64,000 nucleotides of DNA, taken from NCBI RefSeq assembly GCF_963676685.1, contig NC_092347.1:62682001-62746000 (forward strand), read 5' to 3'. Source of the DNA: Mytilus edulis (lineage: Eukaryota). Positions 20,171 through 52,990 of the stretch are shown one piece after another. Below the pieces are notes generated by a model. The model searched no databases. It had not been told where the DNA came from and was given only the letters and a program-made list of their open reading frames with translations. Every line of letters begins with the position of its first letter. Within the stretch, counting starts at the first letter, position 1. A program made the translations under genes and the position numbers.

Positions 20171-22707
20171 TTATTGTGTTTTACAAATCTTCTGAAAGTC
20201 ACAATCACCAAGTAGTTTATATGCCTGTTTGAAAGTCTGATAAAGACACACTTTGCTGCCACATGCAGGGATGTTAACTTCTTCTTCATTCACAAACATT
20301 TTAACGACGAAATTTCTGCTAACTCCACACTTGTAAAGGGCAGTACCTAAATTTGCAGAGAATGGACATGACTTGCTAACCCGAAATCGGCGGCTTTTGT
20401 TTGCTTCAAAATTGTTAGCTAAAAGTGTATTAGAGTCTTTGAATAGTCCAAATGCTGTATACACAGGAAGAAGCGTATAAGAATGCGCAAACTGAACATC
20501 AGCTACTGTGGTCCTGTAAAGGTAAAACATATAACACAAATATTAGACGCATAGCTAAGATTTTACATGAATAATGATCAATAATATCTCATACTTTCAC
20601 ATCTATACATCTATTTTTATTGTGCTGAAAGTGTTGAGATTTTTTTTTAAATGCTTCTCATCTTGGTCTAGAACAGTTTTCATGACTTCAGCCTATTTCC
20701 ATCGCAACTACTTGGTCATTTTTGATTTACGCCTACATTTTTGAAGCCTGTAGAGGATAACCGAACCAGAATCATTGTGAATAAATTTGATAGAAACTCC
20801 CATCCTGCATGTTAGAACTAGCATATATTTTTAAAAAGAAGTCTCCATAATTTGATATTTCCCATACTCACTCATTCTGATATGCAATGATGTCATCAAA
20901 TCGTTTTAACATGTGACTTGTAAAAGGACAGGACATTTGCCAGTTTATTGGGTAACCAAAGCCTCTCTGCCAGAAGTGCTGTAATGTAAACAATAGTCAT
21001 GCTGAAATAATATCACCATATATGATATTGTATGGCGGACAAAAACATTAGATTCTCTCATTCAAACCATAACATTCGAGTTATTTTTAAAACAGTATAT
21101 CCGTTTACATGTTATGTAAAAACTGTCTGAAATGAGCACTATCTGAACTTGCATGTGATATTTTGTTATTTTGTATACAAATTTTACTATAACATTATAA
21201 AGGAGATTGTGACATATACTTTATATATTTTTTTAAATATAGAACATGAATGTATCTAACAGCTGAAGGCGTGACACCAATTGCGCATGTCTCGCTGATG
21301 TAATTAAACTATATCGCCAGTGTTTGCAGGCTCCTTATTTCTTACGGATAAAACATTTTATATGACATCCTTCTTTGTTTCTTAAAGGATTTGAAAAAAG
21401 TATAATTCATTGCTAAAATTCACCGAACTTACCGATAAATCAAATAAGTAGTCTAACACTAAAAGATCGTCCAAAGTGAAAAAGCTGCACCAATCTGATT
21501 GGTTAAATATTCCAAGTTCGAAGGCACAAATCTGATGCATTGTTATGACTTGTTCTGAAATTCAAATGATGAACACTCCAAGTCACTATTTACTGACAAA
21601 AGGTGTATATCTTAAGTTTATGTTAATAAAGTAAGAAACAAGAACTAAATAAACGTCGAAATTTCAAATATATAGGATATATCTGAGCGAAAAACGGATG
21701 AAATATCAATCAATTAATTATAAGACGAGGACTGAAAGTCTAAAAAGGATAGTTTGTTAGATTGTTTTTATAACCTATTTCTTTTAATATTTATATTTGT
21801 TTCTGTTTCTGTTGTGTCCTTTTGAATATGTGTGATTATTTACATGTATACATAGATACGCAATTATAGATGTTTTAATAGAAAAAAGAAGATGTGGTAC
21901 AATTGCCAATTGGACAACTCTCCACAATAGACCAAAATGATAGAAATTAACAACTATAGGTTACCAAACGGCTTTCAACAATGAGCAATTAGTACCTGTC
22001 TTTAATTTTTGCACTCCGATTAGTTTCTTTATCTTATCAACTACTGTTCTCATCGTTGTTCCACCAACAAATGCATCATATTCCACATTTGATTTGTCAC
22101 TGTACGTTCTATACTTCTTACATTTTGAATAAAAACGGAGCCGTTGATCGTCCACTGTTGGAATTGGCATAGGTGCGTCAGCTGGCAAAGTTTCATTCAA
22201 ACTTTTGAAGAAAGCATCAAAACTTTGCCGAGTAACTTCCTTGCTTGTAATGGTATAATCTATAAGGTCCATTTTCCCTTCAAATAACTGTTTGAATTTC
22301 TCTCCGAATGTTCTACCTAGAGTTGTCGCTTCTTCATTTCCAAGTGAGGACATGGAATATGCATTTTCTTCTGCAAACGGGATTATCCACGTCTTCAAGA
22401 AGTTATGTTTCTTAACAACATCCGGGTACTGCTTCATCATTTTATGCAAATTCTTCATCCTCCGTATCCAGTAGAGTGATGGATATCTGGCAACATGTCT
22501 CATCAGCAGATTTAAGTTTACAATCTGACACACTTCACCATTGTACATGACAGTACTTTCGTCAGTTACTGTGTCATTGACGTATCTGTCTTTTGCCCAT
22601 GAATATGGTGTCATTACATTGAATACTGGTTTCGTGAAATTAGTCCCGCACTTAAGTTCTACCACAACAGTTGCTAAAAGTACGATTGACAAAATATAAG
22701 ATAGCAT
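20171..22707 (-). CDS. MINPP1: MINPP1-like histidine acid phosphatase paralog A, 427 aa, secreted, degenerate active site
   Basis: Exons 22707-21996, 21554-21433, 20978-20872, 20513-20171, GT-AG and in phase. Signal peptide; RHVARYP; LRFYxxC; ICAFELG..WC; GFGYPIN; FAHSYT; CPFSANL. Confidence 0.92.
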
Positions 22708-23490
22708 TGTCTTACTATCCTTGAACGAAAGAAAACGTCTATCACTATTTTATGAACGACATATTTCTGTGTTGTAATATGACAAGGTAAAGTACTGACA
22801 ACAGTCATAAATAAGACTGCTGTTTTTATAGTTTGGGTTTATTTATTATTTCATAACATTTAACTGAAGTTAATGACGATTTTAATATGGACTTTTAAGT
22901 TTTTTTTAAACAATGACGTATAAAGAGAAATAGTTAACACCAATAACGTTATGCAAATTGTTCTTTTTTTTGTGTATAAAGTTGATTTATATCCGTAGAA
23001 TGTTTTAGTTTAAACAAATTACAGATTTTGTTTATTTATTAAGCATACACGTCAGTACACCTTGCATTTCCATGTTATTTCTGTTTTTTTCCGTTATCTA
23101 CAATAACTGTGTTGTTATTTGAAAAGATCTTGATGTCATTTGTCCCAAATTCAAATTTGAATACCGCAACCCCCTCCCCCCTAAAAAAGAAGAATCAGTC
23201 AAATTGACGATAATCATGTTTAACCTATCCTTATACTACAGAAATTTATAGATTAGTGTGGAACGACTTATTTCGGTGTTATAAATCTGTTATAATAGTT
23301 CAAAACAATTACATACAAGTCGTTAATAAAATTACTGGTTTTATAGTTCGTGTTTATTTCTGACTTAACATTTAACTACATCATTTTTATGGTTGCATCT
23401 TATGTAAAAAATATTTCGAAGTACATGGTTCGGGAATAAATGTGGTTCCTTGTTGGATTTATTGAGAATTTAAAATAATTTTGTCTAATA

Positions 23491-23764: not shown

Positions 23765-23767
23765 TAA

Positions 23768-25567
23768 ATGTATATGTCGTGTACAAGTTGCGATTTTGTA
23801 CAGGTTATAACATGTACAAAAATGTTGTACATGTTATAACTTGTATAATGCAAAAATACAAGTTATAACATGTACAAAAGTACCTCATACATGTTATAAC
23901 CTGTACAAAATATTGCTTAAAAATGGTTTTAACTTGTACAAAATCGAAAAATAAGATGATATTGACCTCAATAACCTTTTTTTATTATTCCTTCATGTCA
24001 GTGTGTTTTGTCCTTTTTTGATACAGTTAATGTCCAGGGGTCGGTATTACGAAGCATTCCTAAGATCTGTCATAAGATATATCTTAGGACATGTCTTATG
24101 ATCCTTTTATGACTATCTATGGACGTATCTTTATTTAATGAATTATAATTGTGAGTGTCCACTTTGAAGGCAATAGTAAAATACTTTCATTCTAATTGAC
24201 ACTAAAAAGACGTAAGAGGATAGCCAGGATAGATGTGTCTACAATTGAAATTGGGAATTGAAATGGGGTATGTGTCTAAAAGACAACAACCCGCCCATGG
24301 ACCAAACAACACCTAAAGGCCACAAATACATGCTTTCAAAGTAGAGGATATATTTTAAACATCAAAATGACATTCGCCTCATGCAATGATCCTAGAGTTT
24401 ATAAAACAAGATTGAGTTATAAATTTACATAAGTCATGCTGAAGGCCAAAAATGTTGAAGAGTAGATCCAAAGATATTGATAATGAAGCGTGGTCCAATG
24501 AAAACTATTTCAGCTCACTCTTGCTTTTACAGAGTAAGCATATAAGACATTGTTTTAGTCTTTGCATGCTATAAAATGAGAGGGAGGAGTATTACCCAAA
24601 ATTATTCGGCATCGTTCTTAAATTTTTTGGAAGAATTTAGTTACTAGTATCTAATGTAATTGTCATTGAGTTGAGGAAATGCAAGCTTTTAGTAAATAGT
24701 TTCACACTTATTTAAGCCATGATGGACTGCATATAACATACAATTACATGAAAACACATTTGCCAACATAAGTCATGAAACATATATTTCTGAAACTTTG
24801 TGATCATTGTCCTCTACAGAAAAAGACACGTTCTGGCCTATTTATTGTTGTTCTTTATGCATTGGTAATTTGATAGTTCCAAAGCCAAAAACTGAACTGT
24901 TTAAAAAATCTTTTGCTTATTCTGGATCAGTTTTATGGAACGGACTACCTTATGAAATGCGTAAAGTGCAAAACACTTATTCTTTTAAACAAATTATAAA
25001 ACAATACTTGAGACAGTCCCAATATTCAGTCTGAATTGATTGCAACTACATTGTATTACTCTTAGAATGTATGATTTTAATGATTTGTATATACTAGGTC
25101 TATTTACTACATGCGATATTTAACTGTTTTATATCTTTTAATCATGGTACATGTACACTGAACTATTATGTCTATACAATTGTGTTTATATGTTGTATGA
25201 TTGCTTTTTTCTTTTATTATTACCATTTTGTTTTTACTTGTATTGCATACATGTATATGAGGGCCTCAGGGAAGATTAGTGATTGTAACTAACTGTGTTT
25301 ACCCTCTTTAAATAAAGAATTTATTATTATTATTATTATTATTATTGGTGAATTTAAATGTATATTTTACCTCATTAAGATTTATTTTTAATTTTGTACA
25401 AGTTAAAACCATTTTTTAGCAATATTTTGTACAGGTTATAACATGTATGAGGTACTTTTGTACATGTTATAACTTGTATTTTTGCATTATACAAGTTATA
25501 ACATGTACAATATTTTTGTACATGTTATAACCTGTACAAAATCGCAACTTGTACACGACATATACAT
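23768..25567. mobile_element. Fold-back-type DNA element with ~180-bp TIRs built from GTTATAAC/TGTACA subrepeats
   Basis: 23768-~23944 is a near-perfect reverse complement of ~25392-25567. Confidence 0.85.
24860..25346 (+). mobile_element. 5'-truncated L2/CR1-group LINE 3' end with (ATT)n tail
   Basis: LIVPKPKTELFKKSFAYSGSVLWNGLP..SFKQIIKQYL, then a 3' UTR, AATAAA and an (ATT)n tail. Confidence 0.8.
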
Positions 25568-27726: not shown

Positions 27727-30700
27727 TTAGAGACATTGAACATATTTAAGCATCACTGTAATTATAACTAAGACAAGTGACAAAAAAGTATATGTGAATC
27801 GCACAGCAGAACTGGTATCACAAATCTTATCAAAGTCACATTTAGCAAGCTCTTTGTAGTAATGTGACAGTGGAAAAAGCAGCTTCGTTTAATACTTAGG
27901 ACTTTAATATTTAATTCTCAATTTTGATATTTTAGACATTAATTATCTGTGTTTTATTATTCATTATATTTTATAATTTCATTTCTATTTACATTTCGTA
28001 TCCAGGACTTAAAATCAACATTCTTTAATATGCATTTAATTCTCAGTTTGGACATTGAGTGACATGTTTCAATCGGTTAGCTAATTAGTGACATTTTACC
28101 TTATTCATAATGTATGTTCTTAATTGTCATAATCAGATTATCATTTAATATCTATTCTTCAAGTTCTAAAAATAGTTTAATCTTTGTCAGTGAACAATAT
28201 CACTCAAATTAATTGTTATTTGTTATGTCCATACTTGTTAATTCAATTGTGTATAAATACTTGTTTATAATTTCTATAAGCAAGATTTGGACTCAGGACT
28301 TTACACTGAACACAGTCCATCTGTAATAAAAGTAATAGTATTCCATGCTGAATTATTGGTTTATTCATCGCTAGTTCCAAAGTCTCAAGAGTTAGTTTTC
28401 ACCAGAGTTTCAGAGTTCAGAGTTCTCATTGCTATTCACAGCAATCGTTCGTTGTGTGATCAGGTGCATCACACAGTTTCAGTAGCAAGAGGCCATTCAG
28501 TCAGGCTCTTGTTACACACCCGACAAGCCACCCAGTTTCCCCGGTGACAGATTGGTGGACGACGACGGCGTGCTGACTTCTATGCTCAGCACACGATCCA
28601 GAGACCTCAAGCAGCCAAGCGAGTTCCCCAGATAAGTAGCGTAGACAATATTCAGCGATGGAGTACAGCTTTCGACCACAATGGAGACCATGGAACATCC
28701 AGTCAGGTTACAGTCCAGCATGTGGGAGATGCGGTAAATTCCATAAACATTATATTTGTAATTCTGTCAATCAAAGGTGCTTTTCATGTAGAAAATTCGG
28801 ACATTTCTCAAGTAAGTGTTTTTCAAAAGCAACAAAAGACAGACAAAGTACACCAGTTCATGTGAAATCTAGAAAACAAAAAGAACGTGATATAGCTAGA
28901 ATACAAAGCTATATTGAGCGCAAAAACATCATCCGAGCTTTACCGTTCTCAGGTATGAGAAATTCGGCCTTCATTCAACATTTGGACATTGCAAATGTGT
29001 TAAAAACAGAACTAAATAGTGTTAAGTCGAAATTATCAGAGGAAAAACGGAAAAATTCAGAACATCAACAGTACATTCAGGACTTAAAATTTCAAATGAA
29101 CCATCTAGAGAGTGTTAAATCCGAGAGAGATCAGTTTAAGCAAGAGCTTGCAAACATTAGTAAACATAAAGAAGAAAATGCCTCGCGTATAAACGTACAG
29201 GAATATGTGAATCAAATTCAAGAATTAAAGGACCAAGTAATTGAAAAAGACAAGACTGTGAAAATGGTGCAAGATCTTTACTTTATGCGTTCAACCGAAT
29301 TTACGGACGAAATAGAAACATTGAAAAATGAAAAATCAGACCTTCATTCTAAACTTCAATCTCAAGAAAATTCTGTCAAACAGCTGACAGAAGAACTGCA
29401 AAGCCTTCGGAATGAAAATTATATGTTGTCTTCCAGTCAACACCAACAGCGACCTAACTACAACAACAGACACTATAACAACCGCAGAGGAGGCCGATTT
29501 AGATAGTGCTAAGTCCGAGGACGGACTTAATTGGGAGGAGAGGCATATGTGACAGTGGAAAAAGCAGCTTCGTTTAATACTTAGGACTTTAATATTTAAT
29601 TCTCAATTTTGATATTTTAGACATTAATTATCTGTGTTTTATTATTCATTATATTTTATAATTTCATTTCTATTTACATTTCGTATCCAGGACTTAAAAT
29701 CAACATTCTTTAATATGCATTTAATTCTCAGTTTGGACATTGAGTGACATGTTTCAATCGGTTAGCTAATTAGTGACATTTTACCTTATTCATAATGTAT
29801 GTTCTTAATTGTCATAATCAGATTATCATTTAATATCTATTCTTCAAGTTCTAAAAATAGTTTAATCTTTGTCAGTGAACAATATCACTCAAATTAATTG
29901 TTATTTGTTATGTCCATACTTGTTAATTCAATTGTGTATAAATACTTGTTTATAATTTCTATAAGCAAGATTTGGACTCAGGACTTTACACTGAACACAG
30001 TCCATCTGTAATAAAAGTATTAGTATTCCATGCTGAATTATTGGTTTATTCATTCGCTAGTTCCAAAGTCTCAAGAGTTAGTTTTCACCAGAGTTTCAGT
30101 ATCAGAGTTCTCATTGCTATTCAGAGCAATCATTCGTTGTGTGATCAGGTGCATCACACAGTTTCAGTAACAAGAGGCCATTCAGTCAGGCTCTTGTTGC
30201 ACATCCTAACAAGTCACCCTTATTTCCCCGGTGACAGTAATTCTTCACATCGGAATATGAACATACCGTTCCACCACAAGCTGGTATATTAACTTGCTCT
30301 TCATTAACAAATATTTTAAATGCATGTTTTCCATTTGCTCCACATTTGTACAAACTAAATGCAATATTTGCAGAAAACGGTGTTATTTCACTCGTACTGA
30401 ATTTTCGATTGATATTAGCATCATAGTTTGCTGCTGTGAATGACTCAGAATCCTTGAACAATCCAAATGCAGTGAAGATAGGTAGAATCGTATCTTGATG
30501 TCCAAAGAAAATATCTATTGGTGGGATGCTGAAATTTAAAAGATAAAATATTATAAATAGTACAAGTGTGGACACAGATCAGTGTGGAAAGTATGTTTGG
30601 ATGTTTGACAGTGTTTTCTGACAAAAGTTCTCAGGTAAATAGTAGAAAGTAAAACATTTACATTAAAGTTAAATAAACAAATTTTTATTTTCATACGTAA

Positions 30701-33549
30701 AAAGATATATATATTTTTTTTAAGTTGAACAATTATCATGTAACATGATACAAATGACGTTGTTTGTTACACCATCATAACTATCAGAGCATGAATAGTG
30801 AAATTATGAAGCTCGTTACTGCAGTGTCGTCAATTCTCTAGATCTAGTCTTGGCTATATTATAATCGGCAATCCTCGGGTGTATCCGCTTATCTCCTTCT
30901 AAGGGTACGGAATCGTCAATCTAATTAAAAACCGATCTCTCATCGCTCCTGTTACTGATATGTCGCTCCCACGCGACATATCAGAAAACGGGAGCGATGA
31001 GAGATCGGTTTTTAATTAGATTGCGGAATGGGACGAGTTGTGGCGAATGAGCTATATTATTGACGTCTTTTGGAGTTTTATGAAGTACAAAAATGTACTA
31101 CATTATCTACTTCCCTGTCGATTTTTCAATTAACTAGTAATCTCCAAACGATTTCCATTGGAAATATCCAACTGCGTTCATGACTCTACGTTAAACTGAA
31201 TGTGTTAATGACATTTTCACCCTATTTGATATCATACACGTACTTTTTGTCTTAGTCTGGTGGTTGTTCTAAGTGCGTCTTATATACAGTACTTGCCTGT
31301 TTGGTTTTTCGGAGTTTGTTACAGCTTCTTCGAATCGTTCAAAAAGATAAGACGTATAAGGGCAAGTCTGCTGCCAATTGATAGGGTAGCCATATCCCGT
31401 TTTATAGTATTCCTGGAAAATTAGATAAATAGAAGTGTTATATGTGTGAGAACTGTGCTTCTGAACTGAAACTTAATTTTGGTTGAATATTTTGCAAATG
31501 AGTTTACATGGAAGCCCAAATAAAAAATATATATATAATGTTTTGTGTGTAAAGTGGGAAGACACTTAATTACGGTAGAAGCTACTGACCTTCAAATGTT
31601 TATTAGAGACCTTGATCGGGGATTGGAAAATTTTATTTTGTCTACTATTTGATTTTCTATACAGCATAAGGCTTTGTACACATGATTTTATGGTTTTGGT
31701 CAATGATAAATGAAACTTATTCTTTATATATTTTTTGCGACCGAATGATTTTCTATATTTATCATCACCGGGAACTCTAAAACCCAAATATTTGAATGTA
31801 TCAATAACTTTACTCGCTATATGTATACAAAATCTATGTAATTGATTAAAAGTTTTAAGTGCATTCTTTTATTTTTATTATAATGGATATTGTTTGATAT
31901 TTGGGGGCTAGTATACGCAGGAGTGTACGCCTTTTTCATAAATCAATTGGCGTTTTTGAGGGCATTTATTCTAAAAAGAGCTAAATCAATAATAATCTTC
32001 AATTAGGTAATTATTGAATATCAGATTGCAAAAATTGTCGACTAAATAATTAAATGCATGTTATACATGTATTACCTCTAAATCGTCCCAATAAGATATA
32101 ACTCGCAAATCATCAATATTAAAAAATTGGCACCAATCAGACTGTCCATTCAGACCAAGCTCAAAGGCACATATTTGGTGAATCACAAAGACGTCATCTG
32201 AAGAAATACAAGAAAAATTGTAGATTGTAGAATTAATAATACAAATATGATAAAGTGATATTAGATTCTGTTTGTTTGCAGAAGTCTCCTTATAATGTAT
32301 TTTTTTAAGGCGGTCAGTTGATACCATATACGATATAAACTTCTGGTAAGTATAGAGAAAGTTACACACGAGCATCAGAAACAGAAGTCGAATAGTTACC
32401 AAGACAACCTGAAAATATAAATCAAAATGACAAGAATGTCATCATAGTTACAAGAGGCCCAGATATATATCAAACATTTAATTGGAATGAATTTTTAAAC
32501 AATAACCAATCAATCGCAAAGTGCCATTCCTCACATTCTTTTCTATAAACTTTAGACCCTCAACTTTTCTCCAACTTTTTTTCGACCGGATGTCTCCCTT
32601 TTTAGTGTATGATAAAAAGGAAACTCAATAATGTTATTCCTCATGTAGTGTAGTTTGATAAGTTGTAGAGATGTCAAACATTACAATTATATGTCATTGA
32701 TATATGAACGTTAAAATAATACATAAACAAGGAGATTGTCAGTACAAATGTCTAAGTTATGGTATATTCGTTCACCTTAGTTGATCGTTACTTACCAAAA
32801 TCTATAGATATATTGGAGGCTCCAAGTTTTGTCTGTACTTTCTGGACAATATTACTTATCTTCGAACCAGCTTCAAATAAATTAGCTTCTTTTAATATCT
32901 CGTCGTTATCATCAACTTCTTTCACGTATTTTGAACAGCTTTCATAAAATCTGGTTTTCATATTATCTACTTTTGACCAGGGTGACCCGAGGCGGGGTGT
33001 GGGTCCACTGCTTGGAGATGCTTCATTTAATCCGCTGTAAAAGTTTTTAAAACTTGATTTCGTTCGATCTCTGAAAGATGTTGCGAATTTCACTTGATTA
33101 AGTTTTCCGTCCAATAATACTTTAAACCTGGTTCCGAATCGTTTACCTAATATCTTCATTTCTTCAACTCCAAGGGTACTGAGAAGGCCCTGTTGGTTCT
33201 CAAGGAATGGATTAGTCCACTTATTCATGAACGGGTATGTCGAGAGAATAGCTGCGTTAGCTGTTAGCTTAGAATGCAAAGCTGTCATTCGTTTGATCCA
33301 TTTCAAGGTAGGAAATCGAGAACCATGCCTAAGTAATATATTCAGGCCTTCCAGTTGACAAGTTTCCCCATTGAGAATTGCTGTACTGAATTCGTTTTCT
33401 TGAATAACGTCCGATATATTCCTTACCCAAAAATAAGGAGTTTTGGTGTTGAATAATGGTTTCTTAAACAGATTATCACTAAGCACAATTGCAAAAAGAA
33501 AGCTAAAAATGAATGTTGAAATAACAATTTGCAACAAACAAGCCATCAT
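27727..33549 (-). CDS. MINPP1: MINPP1-like paralog B; last exon split by an LTR element (444 aa with insertion, 471 aa pre-insertion)
   Basis: Exons 33549-32796, 32197-32076, 31412-31297 (GC donor) and 30528-30237, with an in-frame remainder at 27858-27727 beyond the element. Motifs RHGSRFP, GHQDT, TPFSANI. With the insertion, the frame stops at 30186 inside the LTR. Confidence 0.92.
27863..30236 (+). mobile_element. Non-autonomous LTR retrotransposon (Gypsy-like signals, no pol)
   Basis: LTRs 27863-28549 and 29548-30236 with TG..CA ends. 4-bp TSD GTAA at 27859-27862 and 30237-30240. PBS-like TGGTGGAC.. at 28553 and PPT GGGAGGAGAGG at 29533-29543. The LTR has TATAAATA at 28252 and AATAAA at 28325. 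Confidence 0.95.
28658..29506 (+). CDS. LTR-element ORF, 282 aa: tandem zinc knuckles, long coiled coil, RGG tail
   Basis: Intact ORF filling the 998-bp internal region. CGRCGKFHKHYIC and CFSCRKFGHFSSKC; E/K/Q/L heptad-rich region at about aa 110-260; ends NNRRGGRFR. Confidence 0.85.
   Translation: MEYSFRPQWRPWNIQSGYSPACGRCGKFHKHYICNSVNQRCFSCRKFGHFSSKCFSKATKDRQSTPVHVKSRKQKERDIARIQSYIERKNIIRALPFSGMRNSAFIQHLDIANVLKTELNSVKSKLSEEKRKNSEHQQYIQDLKFQMNHLESVKSERDQFKQELANISKHKEENASRINVQEYVNQIQELKDQVIEKDKTVKMVQDLYFMRSTEFTDEIETLKNEKSDLHSKLQSQENSVKQLTEELQSLRNENYMLSSSQHQQRPNYNNRHYNNRRGGRFR
30917..31023. mobile_element. Mutator-like MITE (copy 1)
   Basis: TIR caatctaattaaaaaccgatctctcatcgctcc; degenerate 9-bp TSD cggaatcgt/cggaatggg. 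Confidence 0.8.
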
Positions 33550-37795: not shown

Positions 37796-38184
37796 ATCTT
37801 TTGTGTTGTGTTACTTTAGATTAAGAAGAGAAAAAGAGGGAAAAAAATGACTAGCTCTTAAATGTTCAAACCGTATCAAAAATTTTCTCGTAAGGATGCA
37901 TATGTTTTTAATCAGCCACAATATGAAAAATAAGTAGAAGATGTAAAAGTATTTTTTTCTATCGATTATTTTAAAATATTAAGAACTTTTGTTTTATTCA
38001 ATAGAAACGTGTTTACAGTTATCATGTTCATTAAATCTGAAAGTCCCTGACAGTCTGTAATTGTCTAAAACCATTGTTTTCAATTTCCTTGAATAAGACG
38101 ATAAATGTTAATTGTTTTGCAATACTAACAACTCTTGAGTATATCCAAGCTGTAATGAATTTCATTATATGCTGTGTTTCTTTC

Positions 38185-41100
38185 CTATCCAAACGCTGGT
38201 TTGTGTGGATCATTTTGACATATCTGATCAAAATTACAGTCTGCTAGTTTACTGTAGAAGTTCTTGAAATCACCGTATCCACACACTGTATTCCCACAGC
38301 CTGGTATAATTACTGGATCTTCGTTAACAAACATTTGAATTACGTGATCACTGTTTCCGTCACATTTGTACAAAGCAACTGCTAAATTTGCCGAAAATGG
38401 ACCAATGATAGCACCGTGAAATGTTCGGTCTTTATTAACATCAAAGTTATCTGCTCTTAGCGGTTCAGCATCGTGAAATAAACCAAATGCGGTATAAACT
38501 GGAACAATTGTCTCGCTGTGACCAAATGAGATATCTAACTGTGGAACTCTGGAATTAGCAATATAAAGCCATAATAACAAAGTTGCGTAGAAATAAGCAA
38601 AATGCTCTCAAGAGCTTGTATAGCTTACAAGACATGTTTTGCCAAAATTAAATAGATACAATTAATGCAAAAATATTATTTGATAAAAATTTGATGAATT
38701 TATATCGTAATATTCTGAGCTGTTTAATTCTTGTCAGATTTGCAAGATGTAAGACAAGTTATGCACTTAACCTTTATGTTCTATTCACGGTAACAATGGC
38801 TGCCATTTTGTTTTTCTATCTGGGTAATCAAACTTTATACAAGATACCATAACAATCAATCCCCCAAAGTTTGGTTGAAATAGTTTCACGAGTTTCAGAG
38901 GAAAGGATTTTTAAAAAGTTTAAGAGGACGACGGACACCAAGTGTTGACTATACGAGTAAATATACGTTGATAGTGGGTTTTCCCATGGATGGAAACAAG
39001 TGGCTGTGCTATACAATACAATATTTTTATTTTCCAAATTAACGGACCCATTAAGAGCATAACATTAATTACAACATGACATAAACATTACAGAGTGATT
39101 AAAGAAACATAAAATAATAATTCAAATGCATGAGGAAAGAATCAGTGGTCAAGGGGAGATAATTTTGATATCTTTTAGAGTATTTAAGTAACTATTTTTC
39201 TGATTTTCTAAGTTGCAGGCCTTTATCGAGGTATGCACATAAAAAAGATAAAAATCTGCTATCTTCATTAATAATGATCCATGAAAAAAGATCTTTTCTA
39301 TTTGAATTATCTAAACTGGGGTATTTTTTTATATAATCAGTCACATCTCTTCTGAGGTTATTGTAAAGAGGGCATTTCAGAAGAAAGTGCATTTCATTTT
39401 CAATTCAATTTAAATTACAATTTAAACATATCCTCTCATGTCGAGGTAATATTTTATATTTACCACATACATTGGTAATTCGTTCATGTTTGCCAGTTTC
39501 TATTCTTAAACAGTGATTGCTGAGTCTGTATTTTGTTAACAAATTTTTTTTCGGGTGCTTTAAATCTAAATAATTTTTGTAGTTAAATGACCTTTTGAAT
39601 GAAAAATAAGTGTACAATTTGCCTTGATTCTGTAAATAAAAATCTCGCATTTTCTCCCAACAATTTTGAAAATTTAATTTGAGCTGTTTATTAGTAAATT
39701 TTTTAATTTATTTTTGCCTAAATTTTTACATATATTTAGGTCAATACCCAATTTTTTACTGTAGAAAATGATATTAGAGAGCCATGAATTATTGGAGCTA
39801 GTTTGAGCTTTACTCTCAATAATTTTTAACTCAGCATAAGCACTTTTGTTATAGATCACATAGCCTAGACACATAACCAGATGAGCTAAAAGAAATAACT
39901 TGACAAAAATCTTACAGTTTTTTCCCGATGAAGATAAATACCGAAAAGTGCCTCGGACTGTAGAAAATGATATTAGAGAGCCATGAATTATTGGAGCCAG
40001 TTTGAGCTTTACTCTCAATAATTTTTAACTCAGCATAAGCACTTTTGTTATAGATCACATAGCCTAGACACATAACCAGATGAGCTAAAAGAAATAACTT
40101 GACAAAAATCTTAGTTTTTTCCCGATGAAGATAAATACCGAAAAGTGCCTCGGACTGTAGAAAATGATATTAGAGAGCCATGAATTATTGGAGCCAGTTT
40201 GAGCTTTACTCTCAATAATTTTTAACTCAGCATAAGCACTTTTGTTATAGATCACATAGCCTAGACACATAACCAGATGAGCTAAAAGAAATAACTTGAC
40301 AAAAATCTTACAGTTTTTTCCCGATGAAGATAAATACCGAAAAGTGCCTCGGACTGTAGAAAATGATATTAGAGAGCCATGAATTATTGGAGCCAGTTTG
40401 AGCTTTACTCTCAATAATTTTTAACTCAGCATAAGCACTTTTGTTATAGATCACATAGCCTAGACACATAACCAGATGAGCTAAAAGAAATAACTTGACA
40501 AAAATCTTAGTTTTTTCCCGATGAAGATAAATACCGAAAAGTGCCTCGGACTGTAGAAAATGATATTAGAGAGCCATGAATTATTGGAGCCAGTTTGAGC
40601 TTTACTCTCAATAATTTTTAACTCAGCATAAGCACTTTTGTTATAGATCACATAGCCTAGACACATAACCAGATGAGCTAAAAGAAATAACTTGACAAAA
40701 ATCTTACAGTCGTTTCCCGATGAAGATAAATACCGAAAAGTGCCTCGGACGCATACAATCTATAATGTGGTTTCTCAATTTTTTAATGACTACTATATAT
40801 ACAGGAACTCTAATAAAGAAGTATCAAATTGTCAATTTCAAATAGAACTATTGACAAAACTTCTTTTATAAGACTTCCTTAAAATACTTCTTCTATAACA
40901 TTGTCAATTTCAAATAGAACCCTTAAAATATCTTTATCTGTAGAAAAAGTAAAATCCTCATATACTAGTAACATTTTCCTTTTCTGTATGTTTCTTCTAT
41001 GAATCGTGTGTTCGTACATTACTTATTTAATACAAATCTTTCACGTACACACTTCATTCAAATAAAATTCACAAGAATAGTAAGACCAAGAGGTTTGTTC

Positions 41101-43289
41101 GTCGATGTCATATTATAAATTCTATCGCGGACATATATTTTGTAACATTTAGACAATAGACTATTTATTACTTACTTATTATGCTGTAGACTGGCAGCTG
41201 AGACGGTTTGGTCGAACCTTTTAAACATGTATGAAGTAAATGGACAACTTTGTTTCCAATTGATAGGGTAAGCATATCCTTGCTCATAATAATCCTAAAA
41301 TAAACAACATGTTATAATTGCTCATAACCATAATTTTCGCGAAATAAATGATATTGCAAAACTGAAGTATTTATTGATTAAGTCATTTAATATTGTAATG
41401 CTGCTGAAGTTTTTCATTGCTGGATGCTTTAATCAGGAGCCTGTTGTTGAGAGACTGTTGTTTGTTGGTGTGGTTTATAGGTGTTTCTCGTTTCTTTTTT
41501 CTTTTAAACAGATTATAGTGTTGGTTTTCCTTTTTGAATTTGCTTAGGCTAATCATTTTGGGGCCCTTATTAGCTTAATTGTTGTTTGGTGTGAGCAAAG
41601 GATCCGTTTTAAAGGTCTGTAACCGTTAACTTTTTACACATTGTGACTTGAATGGAGAGTTGTGTCATTGGCAACCATACCACATCTCCTTTTCTGTACC
41701 AAGGACGTGAATCCCCTATCAACAAGCCAGCTTTGGACGGACGGAAAGACAGAAGGACGGTAAATGGTAACACTTAATGCTTCCTTCGACTTGCGGTGGG
41801 GGCATAAAAAGAGTATTCACATTTCCGACTCACGAAAGATAATTGATTAGTACTTACCTCTATATTTAGCAGGTAGTCAATGACGAGGAGATCATCTACG
41901 TCAAAAAGTCTACACCAATCAGATTTGTTGAACAGGCCCAACTCTAACGCACATATTTGGTTGATAACAACCACTTCAACTAAAAACGTAGGAAAGTAAA
42001 AATGAATACCTTTCACCATGAATTCATATATAAATGTTATCTACAGAAAGAAGCGGTACACTAAAAAAGGAATGTATACAGTACAGATATATGTGTCGTC
42101 CGTCCGTCTGTAAAATGCATCCAGTCAATATCTTTTAACAGTTTAGACGGGATAGGTCTAACTTATAATCATTTTTTATGCTGTTTTTGTGTGTATCGTG
42201 TATTTGGTTTCGGCATTTATTCACCTACCAATTTACATCAAAAATCCTTGCTGGCTTTCACATTTTTGAGTTTGGTCGTTTCTGCTGAAGGTTTACACAA
42301 AAAAAGTGTTTCATTTTATAAGATCCGTGACAGAAAAGTAGCAGTTAAATCAGCATTAAAAATATTTGAGGAAACTGATTTTGTTATTATAAAAATGCGG
42401 ACATATTCCTTTAAATGACAACCCTTTCTTTCAAGCCAAGCCAAAACACACACACACACACATACACACACACACAAACACGCAGGCTCTTTGAAGAAAC
42501 ACTTTCATATCCCCATTGCAGTTTAAAAGGGTCACCATTAACAGTTATTACGTAAAGCAAGAATATTGTACCTGCAGTCAAGTTGTAAAATCCTAGCTTA
42601 GTCTCAACTTTTCTGATCACGATTGTCATCTCCTTGCCACGAAGAAAGGCTTCATACTCGGTGGTAGTGTTATCATTTCCCTCTACCTCTACATTGTATT
42701 TGTGACAGTTATCGTAGAATCGAAGTTTTTCGTCGTCCACTTTAGCGTTTGGTTCCTGTGTGTTAGTTTGTAAAGTTTCGTTAAGTCCTTCATAGAAATA
42801 TTTGTAACTGTTCTGTGTTCGGTTTTTGTGAGTATATGAAAAGTTGATATGATTCAAGTTTCCTTGTAAGGAAGATTTAAATCGTCTTGCAAATCGATTA
42901 GCAAGTCTTAACATTTCGTATTCACCGACACGACTAAGGGTCCCTTCTTTAGTTTCCGGGAACGGATTGGACCACTGCTTAATAAATGGATACCGGGAAA
43001 TCACTTTCGAGTCGCTTGCTAATTTTATTTGCAATGCTGTCATCCACTTAATCCATTTTATTGTAGGGTATCTGGCGCCGTGTCTGAATAAAACATTCAG
43101 TCCTTCTAGTTGGCAAGTCTGGCCGTTATGGTTTAACGTATTATATTGATTGTCTGGTATACTTTCAGCTGGATCCTTCAACCAGAAATATAGAGTTTTT
43201 GTATTAAACAACGGTTTCATGAATGATTCATTTCCAAGCACAGTTGTACAAAATAAAAATAAATAAGCAAAATAAGTACACAGCTTCAT
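38185..43289 (-). CDS. MINPP1: MINPP1-like paralog C, 440 aa, secreted
   Basis: Exons 43289-42572, 41979-41858, 41294-41176, 38548-38185. Signal peptide MKLCTYFAYLFLFCTTVLG; RHGARYP; GHSET; GPFSANL. Confidence 0.94.
39192..39850 (-). mobile_element. Decayed LINE ORF2 C-terminal region in intron 3 of paralog C
   Basis: KYRLSNHCLRIETGKH..RICLNCNLN*IENEMHFLLKCPLYNNLR (C-terminal CCHC-type domain) with stops and frameshifts. Confidence 0.8.
39758..40748. repeat. Five-unit tandem array, units 199/197/199/197/199 bp
   Basis: Unit starts at 39758, 39957, 40154, 40353, 40550. Confidence 0.95.
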
Positions 43290-46141: not shown

Positions 46142-49100
46142 TTAACCGAGTATCATTACACAAGATAAATAAGTCAATAGCAATACCAGCAACAAGTCTG
46201 AACTCATAATGAAACTGTTACCGGTCATGTTGGTATTAATTTCACATATCTGTTTAACATTGCAGTTCGCAAGATGATGGTAATACGTTTCAAATTCTGA
46301 AAACAGACAACTGGTCTGTCCACATGCCGGAATAACTACTGGTTCCTCGTTTACAAATAATCGAATAACGTAAGCCATGGTTGTGTCACATTTGTACAAT
46401 CCAAAACCAAGATTGGCTGAAAATGGACCAATCAAACTTGTTCTAAATGTTCTGTTCTTGTTCATCAGGTAATTGTCTGCTAAAAGTTTCTGTGAGTTGT
46501 TGAACAACCCAAAAGCTGTATACAGTGGAATAATAGTATCAGTATGTCCAAACTGTATAACAAAGGGTTCTGGGTATATCTCACTGAAATGTATCAAGTA
46601 TAAGTAAAATAGATTTAATTTTAAATAGCAGCACTGTTTGACGCAGATAGACAAAAATGCTAGATTTAGGAAATTACAAGATTTCTGTATTATAACAGGC
46701 CAGAAATAATCAATTTTCAATGTCAATTTAAAGTCATACAGATAACTGCCAAGTAAGATTTAGTAGAAAGTAAGCATAAACATAATACAAGGCAATAGCA
46801 AAATTTAGTATACGGATTTATTTTTCCCATTTTAGAGTTAATTCCCTTAAAGTAGTCATTTTGATGCTATAGAAACAATCTCTCATTTTTGTTAAAGTTC
46901 CCGTTTATGATTATCTTACTCATGTGATAGTGGATTACTTGCTCATTTCCACAGCGCATTTATGCAAAAAGTTTACTTGTTTGCCGGATCGTTAACTGTT
47001 GAGGAAAACAGTTCTCTTTTTGTATTGTTTCAAAATTATATATTGAAAAGTAAAAGATTCACATCATAATATAGAAGCTTTCATCTAATACTTTCCTTGC
47101 ATTTCATACAGATTTTTACTTTGTATATTTTGCACGTTTTCCCGGGATTCTTAATAATAAACGTTTTAAAATTTTGGTTTTCTTACAGACACTTGCATAT
47201 ATAAAATGGCAAACAATTACAAAGAATTCAGCAAAATGATGAAACTCAGATCTTTCACTCTGATCATTTAAATTTGTTTCAATAAGTCTAACAGAGTTTG
47301 TTAAAAGATCTGATTTTAATTAGATTAAATATGTTTGGACGTCTGTCAGTTTTGACATTTACTTACTAATTTAAAGACGATCGCTTTATTTTTCGACCTA
47401 CGACAAATGCCTATTTCAGTGCATTCTGAAATATGACAGAATATTGGAACATCGAAGAGAAATTCATGATAGTGGTAATATTGCAACGACCGATTACGTC
47501 TAATGTCCATGTGCAAATTACTTGATGGGTGGATTGGTGTAACGTCCAGTTATACAAACCTTACATGTATACAAGATGATAAACTGTAAATGTGGTACCT
47601 AAGAGTATGAATGCTGCTTTGTACTAGGCTTAGATGCTGAACTGGATTTTCAATTGCTACTTATTATGTAGTAAACGCCAATGATTAATTCTTTGTATTA
47701 ACCAAGGCTTCGGATCGAACCCGCACGTACTCCCACACTCGAGTCGATGTGCAATGCGAGGCAATTTACTTGACAAAAGCGTTTCATAATGGTACGCACA
47801 ATTTCCAATCGCAGGTTTTAGAAAACTTAAAAGACCAAACTCGATATTGAACTTTTCACCTAATATCATTTTTTATTTATATAACAACAAGGCACTGGAC
47901 GGTATAACTCATAAACCGTGGCCTATACGTAAGTATAAATGGAAAAGGAAATGTCAGATTTAAATTAAAACCCGTTTGGCAATTTTTATCATTTCGGGCA
48001 CTTTTTAACAGAAGCCATTAATCATTCTTACTTTTAAGATTAAAGTGTGAAACCGTTTGTTAAAAAATGTAGTTGCTTGGGGTAGACAAATTTAATTGTT
48101 TTCTGAATGCCGTTCCGAGACCTTTTCTCTCTGACAAACATTTAATAAGATGTAATATATTGCGGTTCAAAATGTTTAAGAGTTTCATTTCCTTAATGCC
48201 GGCGTCACACATTGGCGTATAGACCGACGTGCACCAGACGTACATAGAAAATTGACTAAATCCGTATACGTTAGGTGCAACAAGAGGAACGCTAAACAAT
48301 CGTTAGACGCGCGCTGCATAAGTTTGAAGTACTTCGAAATGCAAAGGTATACGCTTGGTAAACGCTATAACAGCAGAAAATTTTTATGCAGCATAAAAAT
48401 TTTCATCTAGCTCTAGCGTTTGCCAAGCGTATGTATACACGCACGTAATACATACGCTACAAGCGCGTTGGAAAACGCTACAGATAAGTTTGAGACACGT
48501 TTAGGGCAGAAGGAGTATTATTTACCAGAAAAAAAACTTAGAACGTATAGAATATATTGTGTAACTGATGACAGAAGTCTAAAAACCTTCAGACTGGTTT
48601 TATTTTTATTTTATGTCTTTGGTGGCTGTAAGAAGATTGGTGGTAAAGAAAAACTAGTCATTTTTCTCTCAACAACAAAAAATCCTTACATACTGACGCA
48701 TATTAAAAACGCAACACACATTTTGGAGATTTTGTTTTACCATGTGATTGATTCTCACTTTTTCCCATTTATAATTTCCACATGCAAAGCGCCTTAGGTA
48801 ACTGCTTCGTTTAATATAAACACGAGAAAACAATGATGTTTCATATTTTTGGACTGATCAGGCTTCAATTTAGCAGCGGCCCACTCTCCAATGGCCCCTT
48901 AAATTTGGTGTGGCCTCACAAAGTTTCTGCTTTTCTTGTATAGAACTATATAAATTGTTTTTAAGCTGTGGGGTACCATTGCCAAATCTTAACTTCAATT
49001 CCTGGCTGATATTTTTATTGCAATTCAACACTTTGAAAGACAATAACACACTTACACACATTCATTTATACGCTTGTTATTGGCTTTAAGTTAGCTGCCA

Positions 49101-52100
49101 GTAACTGCAAGTACTCTCAGATATTTACTTATTTGTCTTTTTTGTTGGTGAGATAATTTGTCATCGTGACCACGATAAATCATAAATATGTTAAACACTA
49201 CAAAGGAAATATAGTGGGTGATGATTGATTGTATAATGCCATGTAGGTATTTACGACCATTGCATATCCATATAATGAACACAAGTAGGCCGTTAGTTTT
49301 CTCGTTTGAATTGTTTTACATTGTCATTTCGGGGACTTTTATAGCTGACTATGCGGTATGGGCTTTGCTCGTTGTTGAAGGCCGTACAGTGACCTATAGT
49401 TGTTAATGTCTGTGTCTTTTGGAGAGTTGTCTCATTGGCAATCATATCACAACTTCTTTTTCACATTACTAAATTACCTATAGCATATACTCACTTGTGT
49501 CGTTTTCCATTCACAACATTTCTGAACATTTTGAACAGCCGTGACGTGTATGCACAAGATGTCTGCCAATTAATATTGTAGCCATATCCCATTTCCCAAT
49601 AGTTCTAAAGAAGAAATTAGTTTCCATAAAATAATCACTTACTATAGTATTGATAAATTGGTTGGTGTTTAACGCCATTTACAGCACTATCGTGTTATTT
49701 CGAGCTGGTCCGTTTTTATTAATGGGGGAAGCTGGAGTGCCAGATAAAAACCACCAACCCCCATTTTAAAGGGGTTATAACATATGTCCCTATCCTAAAA
49801 CATTAGTTGTAAAACACAAAGTGGGTTCCAATCCCGAGACACGTCTGTTTGCAAACGCCACTGTATATATTAGCTATATACTCTGTATATATGTACTTTC
49901 AAATCTTATGGTCATACTGTTTTCCTATGTCAGATTATTATTTCATTTTTTATTTTTTATAATAGAACTTAATACAAAAGGAATTACTATTAACACCGAC
50001 TCCCAGATATAAATCTACGATTTTGGTCAATATATAAAAAAAAATGTGGTATAATTGCCAGTCACACCCACTAACCAAAATGCTGTAGAAGTTGAAACTA
50101 TAGGTCAACGCGCGGCTTTCGTCAATGAATATAAAAACATACCGCATAGCAAGCTAGAAAACACAAATGTAAAACAAATCGAACGAAAGAACGTCTTTTT
50201 TGTCGCAATTTTTACAATTTTATCAAGACGGCAAGCGTTAGTTCAATTTATCATGTAAACGGAATTTAGACGGTTCTTTACTGAGTTTGGCAATGATAGC
50301 ATAACGATACAGGAACAAGTCTGCTCTAAAAGGGGCACTATTGGTATTCTTAAGAATACCTATAATCTGTCGATACATTTTATTACTAAAAAGTAAATCT
50401 GATCAGTTTATCATCTCGCACGTTTAGTATTATAGAAATAAGGAGATGTGATATGATTGCCAAGGAAAAAAGTATCCACAAAAGTTCAAATGAAGTCGAT
50501 GTAAGCAATTGTAGGTAACCGTACGGCCTTCACAACAATGAGAAAAAGTAAATACATCTACCATATTTACCTAAAACTAATTGCTTTATGTATGAGGTAC
50601 AGCAGATAATTTTCCAGTCAGATTTTAAAACGACCAATAATTTTAATTGAAACCAAATCTGTTATTTTTGAAGAAAAAAAATTTGTGGAAGTGTAGTGAA
50701 AAGAGTTGAAACGTCAAAACATTAAATCGAATTAAAAGGACCACCACGAAAAATAGTTAATTTCGCAATTTTTATATACTTTACTTTAAAAGTTAAAATA
50801 AGTTCTTTTGTAGTAGTTTGCATGACTATTATAATAACATGTATCATGATTAACAATCTAATTAAAAACCGATCTCTCATCGCTCCTGTTTCTGATATGT
50901 CGCGTGGGAGCCCCACGCGACATATCAGAAACAGCGAGCCCCACGCGACATATCAGAAACAGGAGCGATGAGAAATCGGTTTTTAATTAGATTGCATGAT
51001 TAAGTACTTACACGAATGTCAATTAGGTAGTCAATGATCAGTAGATCTTCCATGTCAAAGAATTGGCACCAATTTGATTTTTCAAACATACCAAGTTCAA
51101 ACGCACATATTTGTTGAATGGTAACAATTTCCGCTGTAAAAAAAAAGACATATAAAAAACGGTCATAAGTGTGGAAATAGTCATGTTATATATTGTCATG
51201 TCAAAACAACACATTAGGGAAAATGAAAAGTTCAGTGTCATATGCATTACTGCGTGTTTAATTAAGGTCTGGTTAACAGCAGCAATTGCAACGTTCTGTT
51301 TCTTCGCCAAATACGTCACATGAAGGGACTTTGTGTCATTAAATTATATAACTTAATTAACTCTTCTTTCGCAGTAAACCTGTTCTATTCAGAGTCTGGA
51401 ATACTTAACGTATATTTCATTTCACATTGGATGTTTAGTTTGGAGGGATACATTTTTGTATGAGGGGGGGAAAAAAGCCGAAAAAAGTGCAATCTCATTT
51501 CTATTTTGTCCGATAGTTTTGATAAATATCCGATTTCCGATAAATATCTGTTTTAGATTCATCTCTTTACTAAACTAACGAAAACATTTACAATTGCAAT
51601 GATCTTTGCAACGTCTCCACCTGGTTTCAAATAAATAGTACATGTTGTAAAACACATTGCATTTTTTTCTTTTAAAATTATCGTTCGAAATCTTTAGTTT
51701 GATCATGTTAACTAATAAGAACCATGGTATATATAGTTCTCAACCAATGGTTAGCTGGACATCACACGACGTGTTTGCTTTTTGCAAATTTTTCGAACAA
51801 AATCAGACAAAAAGCACTTTATTGGCCACGAGCATCACTGAAGAGACATGTATTGTCGAAATGCGCATCTGGTGCAAGAAAATTGGTACCGTTAATTTTA
51901 TTACTACCACTGCATGGGTCGATGCCTCTGCTGGTGGACTATTAGTCCCCGAGGGTATCACCAGCCCAGTAGCCAGTACTTCGGTATTGGCATGAAAATA
52001 CGGATTTTTTTTGTGTTATTAAACTTTGCTGTTACAAAATGAAAGAAATTATTATAAATTAAGGAATGTATCTCCCTCATGCAAAGCTCTGATTCCTTTC

Positions 52101-52990
52101 ACGGATTTGGCTATACTTTTTGGACCTTTTGGATTATAGATCTTCATCTTTTATATAAGCTTTGAATTTCACATATTTTTACCACGAGCATCACTGAAGA
52201 GACATGTATTGTCGAAATGCGCATCTGGTGCAAGAAAATTGGTACCGTTAATTTTATTATCATATCATACAAAATTACCTGGTTCGATTTCAGAAGTTCC
52301 AATTTTCTGTCTTACTTTGTTGACAACAGATTTCATTTCATCTCCATTTAAGAATTTGTAAAATTCAGTCAAAGTTTCATTGTTTTGGTCAACCTCTTTT
52401 ATGTATTTACCACAGTAGTCGTAATACCTCAGTAATCTATCGTCTGTAGATGTTGTTATTGACTGTTTACCCATAACATTCTCTAAACCCAGACAAAACT
52501 TGCTTTTGCTTTGCTTTGTCCTATCTTTCGACGTCGTTTCAAACATAATCTTGCCAGCATTTTTACGTACATTGTTTCTAAATCGTTTGACAAATCTTTC
52601 CCCGAGCTGAAGCATTTCTTCATCTCCAACGACAGACTGTTGGTACTGTTTGCTTTTTGGAAATGGGGTTCTCCAGTTACCTATAAACGGATGTTTTGTA
52701 ACAACTAATGAATCCCCTCTTAGAACTGTGGAAATGTTATCCATTTTTTGTATCCATGGTAGAGATGGGTATCTGGCAGCGTGTCTGAATAAGTAATGAA
52801 AATTTGTAATTTGACACGAATGTCCTCCATACATAAATGATCCATCTCTATTCTCCGGAATAGTTTCATTGATACTTTTTACCCAAAAATACGGAGTCAT
52901 AGCATTAAAAATAGGCTTCTTTAAATTGTCTCCAGTAATCACTTTGGTAATTGAAAATAACATAACTGTCAAAATAATGATATATTCCAT
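46142..52990 (-). CDS. MINPP1: MINPP1-like paralog D, 461 aa, hydrophobic GPI-type C-terminus
   Basis: Exons 52990-52279, 51133-51012, 49604-49495, 46583-46142. Motifs RHAARYP and GHTDT; ends ..TGNSFIMSSDLLLVLLLTYLSCVMILG*. Confidence 0.94.
48197..48508. mobile_element. Partial inverted copy (one end) of the same Harbinger-like element
   Basis: Reverse complement of about 2290-2508 joined directly to 3224-3285; preceded by TAA. Confidence 0.8.
50854..50994. mobile_element. Mutator-like MITE (copy 2)
   Basis: Same TIR; perfect 9-bp TSD CATGATTAA. Confidence 0.85.
51832..51875 (+). ncRNA. Minimal type I hammerhead ribozyme
   Basis: GCAUCA-CUGAAGA-GAC(auguauu)GUC-GAAA-UGCGCA-UC^UGGUGC. Stems I and II pair; predicted cleavage after C51869. 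Confidence 0.88.
52188..52231 (+). ncRNA. Minimal type I hammerhead ribozyme (second copy)
   Basis: Identical to 51832-51875; predicted cleavage after C52225. Confidence 0.88.

What the first reader, a model, noticed from the sequence alone, without database searches (positions are those of the whole stretch)
20171..52990. Four-gene battery of extracellular MINPP1/phytase-like enzymes with diversified active sites and anchoring
Seen: four same-strand paralogs share a 4-exon structure (exon 2 always 122 nt; intron phases 1, 0, 2), all with signal peptides and none with a KDEL-like end. Motif pairs are A RHVARYP/HSY, B RHGSRFP/HQD, C RHGARYP/HSE and D RHAARYP/HTD. B (ancestrally) and D have GPI-type tails; A and C are soluble. 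Known: vertebrate MINPP1 is a single ER-retained enzyme with RHGxRxP and HAE, and Drosophila Mipp1 is surface-linked. Inference: an old, diverged expansion for extracellular inositol-polyphosphate or phytate hydrolysis, for example in digestion or control of shell mineralisation.
Basis: partly seen in the sequence, partly recalled or inferred. Interest (0 to 1): 0.7.

Follow-up and report, generated by a model that had tools for sequence, protein, structure and literature searches.

The report
Mussel phytase-like gene array with pseudoenzyme
Mussels carry four neighbouring copies of the inositol-phosphate phosphatase MINPP1 that lack the tag holding it inside the cell; three likely work as secreted or surface phosphatases, while the fourth has lost key active-site residues in three mussel species and is likely a non-catalytic binder.

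Summary
Observation confirmed: four minus-strand, four-exon MINPP1-like genes (exon 2 = 122 nt; phases 1, 0, 2) with the stated motifs and no KDEL-type end. B, C and D are identical to proteins RefSeq already names 'MINPP1-like' in Mytilus edulis. The genome also has a normal HDEL-ending MINPP1 on another contig. The array is that gene's sister clade (99/98 support), so it arose on the mussel line, apart from scallop secreted copies.

The 'battery of four hydrolases' needs correcting. B, C and D keep a full catalytic set, and their motif variants are ordinary. A has lost the third phosphate-pocket arginine (R in 158 of 163 aligned proteins), the proton-donor acid and the loop glycine. It has done so identically in three Mytilus species, yet it is intact and spliced: a likely pseudophosphatase. 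B and C carry acids where ER-type enzymes are basic, hinting at other substrates than InsP6. B's tail is cut by a young LTR element that other Mytilus records lack.

Non-ER MINPP1 copies are common among the relatives found. Digestion and shell roles have no evidence here. Verdict: new variant of a known kind, moderate interest.

The parts
20171..22707 (-). Gene A, 427 aa, soluble; exons 22707-21996, 21554-21433, 20978-20872, 20513-20171; RHVARYP, pocket Arg replaced by Val158, HSY; likely pseudophosphatase
   Evidence: Model; orthologues P0053 (M. coruscus, 84.8%) and P0200 (M. californianus, 83.1%) share all three changes; exons 2-3-4 joined in RNA contig of X16
27727..27858 (-). Original 3' end of gene B exon 4 (two conserved Cys and hydrophobic, GPI-type tail), cut off by the LTR element
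   Evidence: same kind of tail in P0002, P0003, P0016, P0017, P0020
27863..30236 (+). Non-autonomous LTR element, 2,374 bp; LTRs 27863-28549 and 29548-30236, TG..CA ends, 4-bp target duplication, one ORF 28640-29503 with a CCHC knuckle; inserted in B exon 4
   Evidence: LTRs 674 of 690 columns identical; 39 matches in the genome, three other full internal copies at 97-99%; 4-bp flanking duplications in 5 of 6 fetched copies, left end not located in the sixth
30186..33549 (-). Gene B, 444 aa in this allele (last 16 residues from the LTR), 471 aa with the element skipped; exons 33549-32796, 32197-32076, 31412-31297 (GC donor), 30528-30186; RHGSRFP/HQD
   Evidence: identical to P0018; joints at all three introns in X16 RNA
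38185..43289 (-). Gene C, 440 aa, soluble; exons 43289-42572, 41979-41858, 41294-41176, 38548-38185; RHGARYP/HSE
   Evidence: identical to P0202; orthologues 89-94%; no reads laid
46142..52990 (-). Gene D, 461 aa, hydrophobic GPI-type tail; exons 52990-52279, 51133-51012, 49604-49495, 46583-46142; RHAARYP/HTD
   Evidence: identical to P0052; orthologues 87-93%; full-length orthologues on 1.5-1.8 kb Logan contigs; no reads laid

Best explanation
This is a tandem array of four MINPP1-family genes that likely arose on the mussel line from the ER-resident MINPP1 and lack its HDEL tag; B, C and D are predicted to be extracellular histidine acid phosphatases (B and D likely GPI-anchored, C likely secreted), and A is likely a secreted, nearly inactive pseudophosphatase kept as a ligand binder. 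Mechanism for B, C, D (inferred from family chemistry): three Arg and a His hold the scissile phosphate, the RHxxRxP His forms a phosphohistidine, and the Asp/Glu of the HxD/E triplet protonates the leaving group. The likely job is stripping phosphate from organic phosphates at exposed epithelial surfaces. D keeps a basic residue at the BtMinpp R275 position and is the best inositol-phosphate candidate. B and C have acids there and likely prefer less charged substrates. A keeps the fold, the nucleophilic His, two of the three pocket Arg, the second His and the R183-type Arg, so it may still bind a phosphorylated ligand. In this genome's allele B has lost its anchor and last two Cys to an LTR insertion, an allele other Mytilus records do not share. 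Shown: genes, motifs, orthology, residue losses, insertion, splicing of A and B. Inferred: localisation, activity, substrate, tissue.
For: Family: Pfam His_Phos_2 at E 1e-25 to 1e-39. An AlphaFold model of the A orthologue P0053 (pLDDT 94.1) matches fungal phytases and BtMinpp first (E about 1e-17, TM 0.70-0.77). Origin: IQ-TREE on 32 chosen rows gives array clade 96/95, array + Mytilus HDEL gene 99/98, and scallop non-ER copies elsewhere; FastTree on 147 rows agrees. The own genome holds 7 loci, one ending HDEL with HAE. Catalytic set: papers name three Arg, two His and the HAE Glu as the centre (PMC7762957, PMC3969271, PMC9181005; passages). The profile aligns the family 'RtkdS' Arg with A. 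niger PhyA R142 and the matching BtMinpp Arg. That column is R in 158 of 163 rows and V only in A and its two orthologues. Removing the proton donor cuts AppA kcat from 10,209 to 10.5 per s (PMC9181005 Table 1). A is 427 aa and intact in 3 of 3 species at 83-90% identity, near B, C, D (81-89% to the same species). Charge: the R275 column is K/R in 26 of 27 ER-tagged and 32 of 99 untagged rows; 14 independent pairs, median p 0.031. Insertion: intact tails in 5 B orthologue records; in DNA run X5 a 1,118-nt contig follows exon 4 to 30236 and its other 765 letters do not lie on the adjoining LTR.
Against: No activity, localisation or tissue data. Lacking the acid does not prove inactivity: 36 of 122 representatives lack it but keep the third Arg, including named MINPP1s of Calliphora and Artemia, and AppA without it keeps about 0.1% of its turnover. 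Nearby K/R156 or R160, or Tyr326, might stand in for the lost residues in A; not tested. The pocket role of the R275 column rests on alignment and PDB entry titles; two papers searched did not mention it. The pair test ranged from p 0.008 to 0.63. Expression looks low or restricted: raw-read run X24 (about 6% read) gave no reads on coding exons of A or B, and X15 gave only unspliced exon-1 pieces. A has a longer branch in this genome (0.14 against 0.045), which could mean relaxing selection. The tree has limited bivalve sampling, a midpoint root and no AU test.
Confidence: 0.62

Rival explanations
1. One reading: all four are active extracellular InsP6/phytate hydrolases with differing positional specificity, used in digestion or shell control.
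For: All four keep RHxxRxP, the second His and the R183-type Arg. The proton-donor motif does tune stereospecificity in AppA (PMC9181005). Acid-less triplets occur in named arthropod MINPP1s. A plant-fed rumen fluke has a six-gene MINPP expansion (PMC11727788).
Against: A lacks a near-invariant pocket Arg as well as the donor. B and C reverse the charge at the R275 column. No tissue or shell evidence was found.
Confidence: 0.17
2. The array serves surface defence: B, C, D dephosphorylate bacterial LPS, polyphosphate or extracellular nucleotides in mucus or haemolymph, and A is a trap or decoy for such ligands.
For: Wheat MINPP1 dephosphorylates LPS and polyphosphate and acts on ATP/UDP stimuli (review PMC12580751, parts 1-2). 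Loss of basic charge recurs in non-ER copies.
Against: No immune expression or binding data here. Polyphosphate is itself strongly anionic, so acids in the cleft do not favour it.
Confidence: 0.13
3. Birth-and-death turnover: redundant duplicates under weak selection, with A and this allele of B on the way to pseudogenes.
For: B is disrupted here. A has a longer branch here. Low RNA signal. The ER gene is more conserved (92% to M. californianus) than array members (83-89%).
Against: Four paralogues at 40-48% identity each have intact orthologues across Mytilus. A keeps the same length and the same three odd residues in 3 of 3 species. A and B are spliced in X16.
Confidence: 0.08

Closest known systems
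Vertebrate/plant ER-resident MINPP1 (EC 3.1.3.62) and the HDEL-ending Mytilus orthologue on contig C9
   Same: HP2 fold, RHxxRxP, R183-type Arg, conserved Cys, N-terminal hydrophobic signal; same four-exon plan as the C9 gene
   Different: No KDEL-like tag; HxD/E or HSY instead of HAE; acids at the R275 column in B and C; pocket Arg lost in A
Drosophila Mipp1 (surface-anchored MINPP1)
   Same: Non-ER MINPP1 outside the cell (seen only as cited in PMC7705663; the original paper was not held)
   Different: The array branches with the mussel ER gene and far from the named arthropod rows, so a separate origin is likely. The fly protein itself was not among my sequences
Bacteroides thetaiotaomicron BtMinpp (PDB 4FDT/4FDU) and Aspergillus PhyA (1IHP, 3K4P)
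   Same: Best structural matches; catalytic columns align
   Different: 16-18% identity; HAE (Bt) or HD (PhyA) donors; A lacks the Arg matching PhyA R142
Non-ER MINPP1-like proteins of scallops, Pinctada and Sinanodonta (P0007, P0054, P0056, P0059, P0063, P0065)
   Same: No ER tag, mostly hydrophobic tails, often degenerate donor triplets (HSG, HVV, HFS, HSS)
   Different: Separate clades; all keep the third pocket Arg that A has lost
Six-gene MINPP expansion of the rumen fluke Calicophoron daubneyi (PMC11727788)
   Same: Lineage-specific MINPP gene expansion in an invertebrate
   Different: Reported as a gene count only in the passages read; no motif or anchor analysis seen

Membership tests
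Histidine phosphatase branch 2 (PF00328) | Profile match above the curated cut-off | tested here: met
   B, C, D full proteins 113-134 bits and A orthologue P0053 90.5 bits against cut-off 23.6
Histidine phosphatase branch 2 (PF00328) | Two-domain HP2 fold | tested here: met
   Model of A orthologue P0053 only: pLDDT 94.1, TM 0.70-0.77 to phytases and MINPPs
MINPP1 subfamily | Phylogenetic placement with ER-type MINPP1 | tested here: met
   Array sister to the HDEL-ending Mytilus gene, 99/98
MINPP1 subfamily | Arg matching BtMinpp R183 | tested here: met
   Present in 4 of 4
MINPP1 subfamily | RHGxRxP | tested here: inconclusive
   Exact in B and C; Ala in D (also 12 of 163 rows); Val in A (only A and its orthologues, 3 of 163)
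MINPP1 subfamily | HAE proton-donor triplet | tested here: not met
   None has HAE; B, C, D keep an acid at the third place (HQD, HSE, HTD); A has Tyr
Canonical ER-retained MINPP1 | KDEL-like C-terminus | tested here: not met
   0 of 4; the C9 gene has HDEL
Active HP2 phosphatase (gene A) | Three pocket Arg plus proton donor | tested here: not met
   Third Arg is Val158 and donor is Tyr in 3 of 3 species
Active HP2 phosphatase (genes B, C, D) | Three pocket Arg, two His, proton donor | tested here: met
   All present by alignment
Phytase / InsP6 phosphatase | Hydrolysis of InsP6 or 2,3-BPG | not testable with these tools
   Needs enzyme assays
GPI-anchored proteins (D, uninterrupted B) | Small-residue omega site, spacer and terminal hydrophobic stretch | tested here: inconclusive
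   Heuristic only: candidate sites 23-31 residues from the end, best 15-residue hydropathy 2.5-2.7; no predictor available
LTR retroelement (insertion in B) | Paired LTRs with TG..CA, target-site duplication, dispersed copies | tested here: met
   internal part is under 1 kb with one CCHC-knuckle ORF and no room for pol, so non-autonomous

The most novel reading that the evidence does not exclude
Animal MINPP1 copies that leave the ER repeatedly give up InsP6-tuned chemistry, and mussel gene A is the end point: a conserved, secreted MINPP-fold pseudophosphatase that binds inositol polyphosphate or another polyanion without cutting it, acting as a carrier, decoy or partner beside three active paralogues with new substrates.
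Probability: 0.25. Interest if true: 0.65.

Novelty: new variant of a known kind. Interest (0 to 1): 0.4.

Why it matters
The substrate and purpose of extracellular MINPP1 in animals are open. This locus offers four natural variants from one ancestor, with the ER gene as a control: anchored or soluble, basic or acidic cleft, complete or gutted catalytic centre. A polymorphic loss-of-anchor allele of B adds a natural experiment. If A binds without cutting, it would be a MINPP-family pseudoenzyme under selection; my searches found none described in molluscs. It is not a new system: the genes are already annotated, and secreted or surface MINPP1 is known in flies and human cell media.

Tried and rejected
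Assembly artefact or chance: rejected, since orthologues of all four exist in other Mytilus species and models match named proteins. More members beside the array: none in the rest of the window or in 10 kb on either side. A pan-bivalve origin of the array: not favoured by either tree; no AU test was run. D's RHA as an old functional change: rejected, M. californianus D has RHG. Loss of the donor acid tracking loss of the ER tag: 27 of 27 against 61 of 101 in raw counts, but the independent-pair test is not significant (median p 0.125). Fused two-domain records P0206 and P0210 (D+C) look like gene-prediction joins, as D has its own stop here; not tested further. X15, labelled invertebrate gut, gave only unspliced exon-1 pieces, so it is no evidence for gut expression. 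X1 was left out as a possible source of the window. Cheng and Andrew 2015 could not be read. Paper search was too loose to inform. Earlier-scan look-ups gave nothing on this family. No complex prediction was run. No supplements were opened; those of PMC3969271 and PMC7762957 may list pocket residues that bear on the R275 claim.
Full report
1. Observation. They share 40-48% identity. All eight first and last exons hit Pfam His_Phos_2. Models B, C and D are identical to named RefSeq proteins of Mytilus edulis (P0018, P0202, P0052), so these three are already annotated as 'MINPP1-like'; no named record identical to A turned up. N-terminal hydrophobic stretches (4 of 4) and C-terminal ones (D, and B with the element skipped) were judged by hydropathy only.

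2. Gene B. Exon 4 is split by a 2,374-bp element at 30236-27863. It has LTRs of 689 and 687 bp (674 of 690 columns identical), TG..CA ends and a 4-bp target duplication. Its internal part has 39 matches in the genome. The allele here ends in 16 LTR-derived residues and loses two conserved Cys and the hydrophobic tail. Five other B records keep both: two M. galloprovincialis, M. trossulus, M. coruscus and another M. edulis record. In DNA run X5 a contig follows exon 4 to the insertion point and then runs 765 letters that do not lie on the LTR. The insertion is therefore likely a young, polymorphic allele.

3. Context and origin. Two searches of the own genome each found 7 loci: the four here, a canonical gene on C9 (RHGSRSP, HAE, HDEL) and two distant non-ER genes on C4. 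No further copy lies in the window or in 10 kb on either side. A profile search of 1.84 billion representatives gave 832 hits at E up to 1e-30, of which the best 150 were returned. On 32 rows that I chose from these and the earlier hits, IQ-TREE gives the array as one clade (96/95), sister to the Mytilus HDEL gene (99/98). Scallop non-ER copies group apart. FastTree on 147 rows agrees (16 near-duplicates dropped). All four genes have orthologues in other Mytilus species, and a B-like protein from an unnamed source (P0001, 56%) lies inside the clade. So the expansion is older than the Mytilus radiation but likely younger than the split from scallops. Sampling is thin, the root is a midpoint and no AU test was run.

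4. Active sites. The census used 163 rows: 8 models from this genome (B counted in both readings) and 155 of 218 fetched proteins; 63 were dropped for length outside 380-560 aa or for identity to a kept row. Papers define the centre as a nucleophilic His, three Arg, a second His and the HAE Glu (PMC7762957, PMC3969271, PMC9181005; passages and section 9). B, C and D have all of these, with Asp or Glu at the donor place, like 116 of 163 rows. D's RHA is recent, as M. californianus D has RHG. A differs at three places: Gly to Val in the loop, donor to Tyr, and the third Arg to Val158. That column aligns with PhyA R142. It is Arg in 158 of 163 rows and Val only in A and its M. coruscus and M. californianus orthologues; the other two exceptions are a protein that also lacks the His and a partial sequence. 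A is 427 aa and intact in all three species at 83-90% identity. A model of the M. coruscus orthologue has pLDDT 94.1 and matches phytase and BtMinpp structures. In AppA, loss of the donor lowers kcat about 1,000-fold (PMC9181005 Table 1). Against a quick verdict: 36 of 122 representatives lack the acid but keep the Arg, including named Calliphora and Artemia MINPP1s. The Arg loss is the stronger sign; inactivity is inferred, not shown.

5. Substrate cleft. All four keep the Arg matching BtMinpp R183. At the columns matching BtMinpp R275/Q276 the ER gene has K/Q, D has R/N, A has S/H, B has E/E and C has E/D; this holds in the Mytilus orthologues listed (P0002's model is broken just after this site). 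Among 128 rows, the R275 column is basic in 26 of 27 ER-tagged proteins and 32 of 99 untagged ones (2 gaps). Fourteen independent pairs go the same way 5.6 to 0.1 times, median p 0.031, range 0.008-0.63. The set is biased to hits of a Mytilus-weighted profile, includes non-animals, and would class truncated records as untagged. That R275 touches the substrate I take from PDB titles (R275W and Q276W complexes with InsS6); two papers searched did not mention it. This is a lead that B and C are not InsP6 specialists.

6. Expression. RNA run X16 gives a contig joining A exons 2-3-4 and joints at all three B introns, including the GC-AG one, at low depth. Raw-read run X24 (about 6% read) has no reads on the coding exons of either. 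X15 has only unspliced exon-1 pieces. Full-length D orthologues sit on 1.5-1.8 kb Logan contigs, shorter than the 6.8-kb gene, so likely transcripts. Tissue is unknown, so digestion and shell roles are untested.

7. Comparison with what is known. Eukaryotic MINPP1 normally has RHGxRxP, HAE and a KDEL-like end (review PMC12580751, parts 1-2 of 4 read). Extracellular activity is known: human MINPP1 is the main secreted phytase of HEK293 cells, and fly Mipp1 is anchored outside the cell (PMC7705663 passages; the fly paper itself was not held). Drosophila has MIPP1 and MIPP2 (PMC13384419 table). A rumen fluke has six MINPP genes (PMC11727788 passages). Searches for 'MINPP1 + mollusc' and 'multiple inositol polyphosphate + bivalve' gave 0 papers. 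'Inositol polyphosphate phosphatase + Mytilus' gave 4, none on mussel genes by listing. 'Pseudophosphatase + histidine phosphatase' gave 7, of which 6 were listed, none on MINPP pseudoenzymes by title and abstract start. PMC10982552 and PMC9432691 were seen as passages only and add no claim. The library lacks most subscription papers.

8. Verdict. The array is real and belongs to the MINPP1 subfamily, but not to the ER-retained type. It works most likely as three extracellular phosphatases and one conserved pseudophosphatase (confidence 0.62). Non-ER MINPP1 paralogues are common among the relatives found, so the array alone is a modest surprise. The conserved triple loss in A, the charge reversal in B and C, and the anchor-removing allele of B are the new and testable parts. 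New variant of a known kind; interest 0.4.

Noticed in passing
window 27863-30236; L012-L016: A 2.37-kb non-autonomous LTR element family with a single CCHC-knuckle, coiled-coil ORF; 39 matches in the genome at 69-100% identity, several 97-99%, so recently mobile.
   Followed up: partly
G000:C4:84.19 Mb (L009) and C4:42.78 Mb (L010): Two more non-ER MINPP1-like genes of an older clade (28% to B exon 1). L009 has Arg in place of the second catalytic His and Gly for the R183-type Arg, shared with unnamed P0123 (93%): a second probable pseudophosphatase.
   Followed up: partly
window 31296-31295 (donor of B intron 3): GC-AG intron confirmed by an RNA joint in X16; one other record (P0020) has four extra residues here, suggesting mis-prediction or a second donor.
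   Followed up: partly
window 34697-37796: 40-bp satellite of about 77 copies between genes B and C.
   Followed up: no
window 39758-40750: Five near-identical 197/199-bp tandem copies in intron 3 of gene C.
   Followed up: no
window 23768-25567: 183-nt inverted arms (98%) around 1.4 kb, like a DNA transposon; smaller fold-back elements at 53269-53714 and 59397-59891.
   Followed up: no
window 57590-58003 (+): First exon of an intermediate-filament gene (Pfam Filament, E 8.6e-24), lamin-like by recall, head to head with gene D.
   Followed up: no
window 21554-21626: The X16 RNA contig for gene A runs 72 nt into intron 1, so it may be partly spliced RNA or use another acceptor.
   Followed up: no
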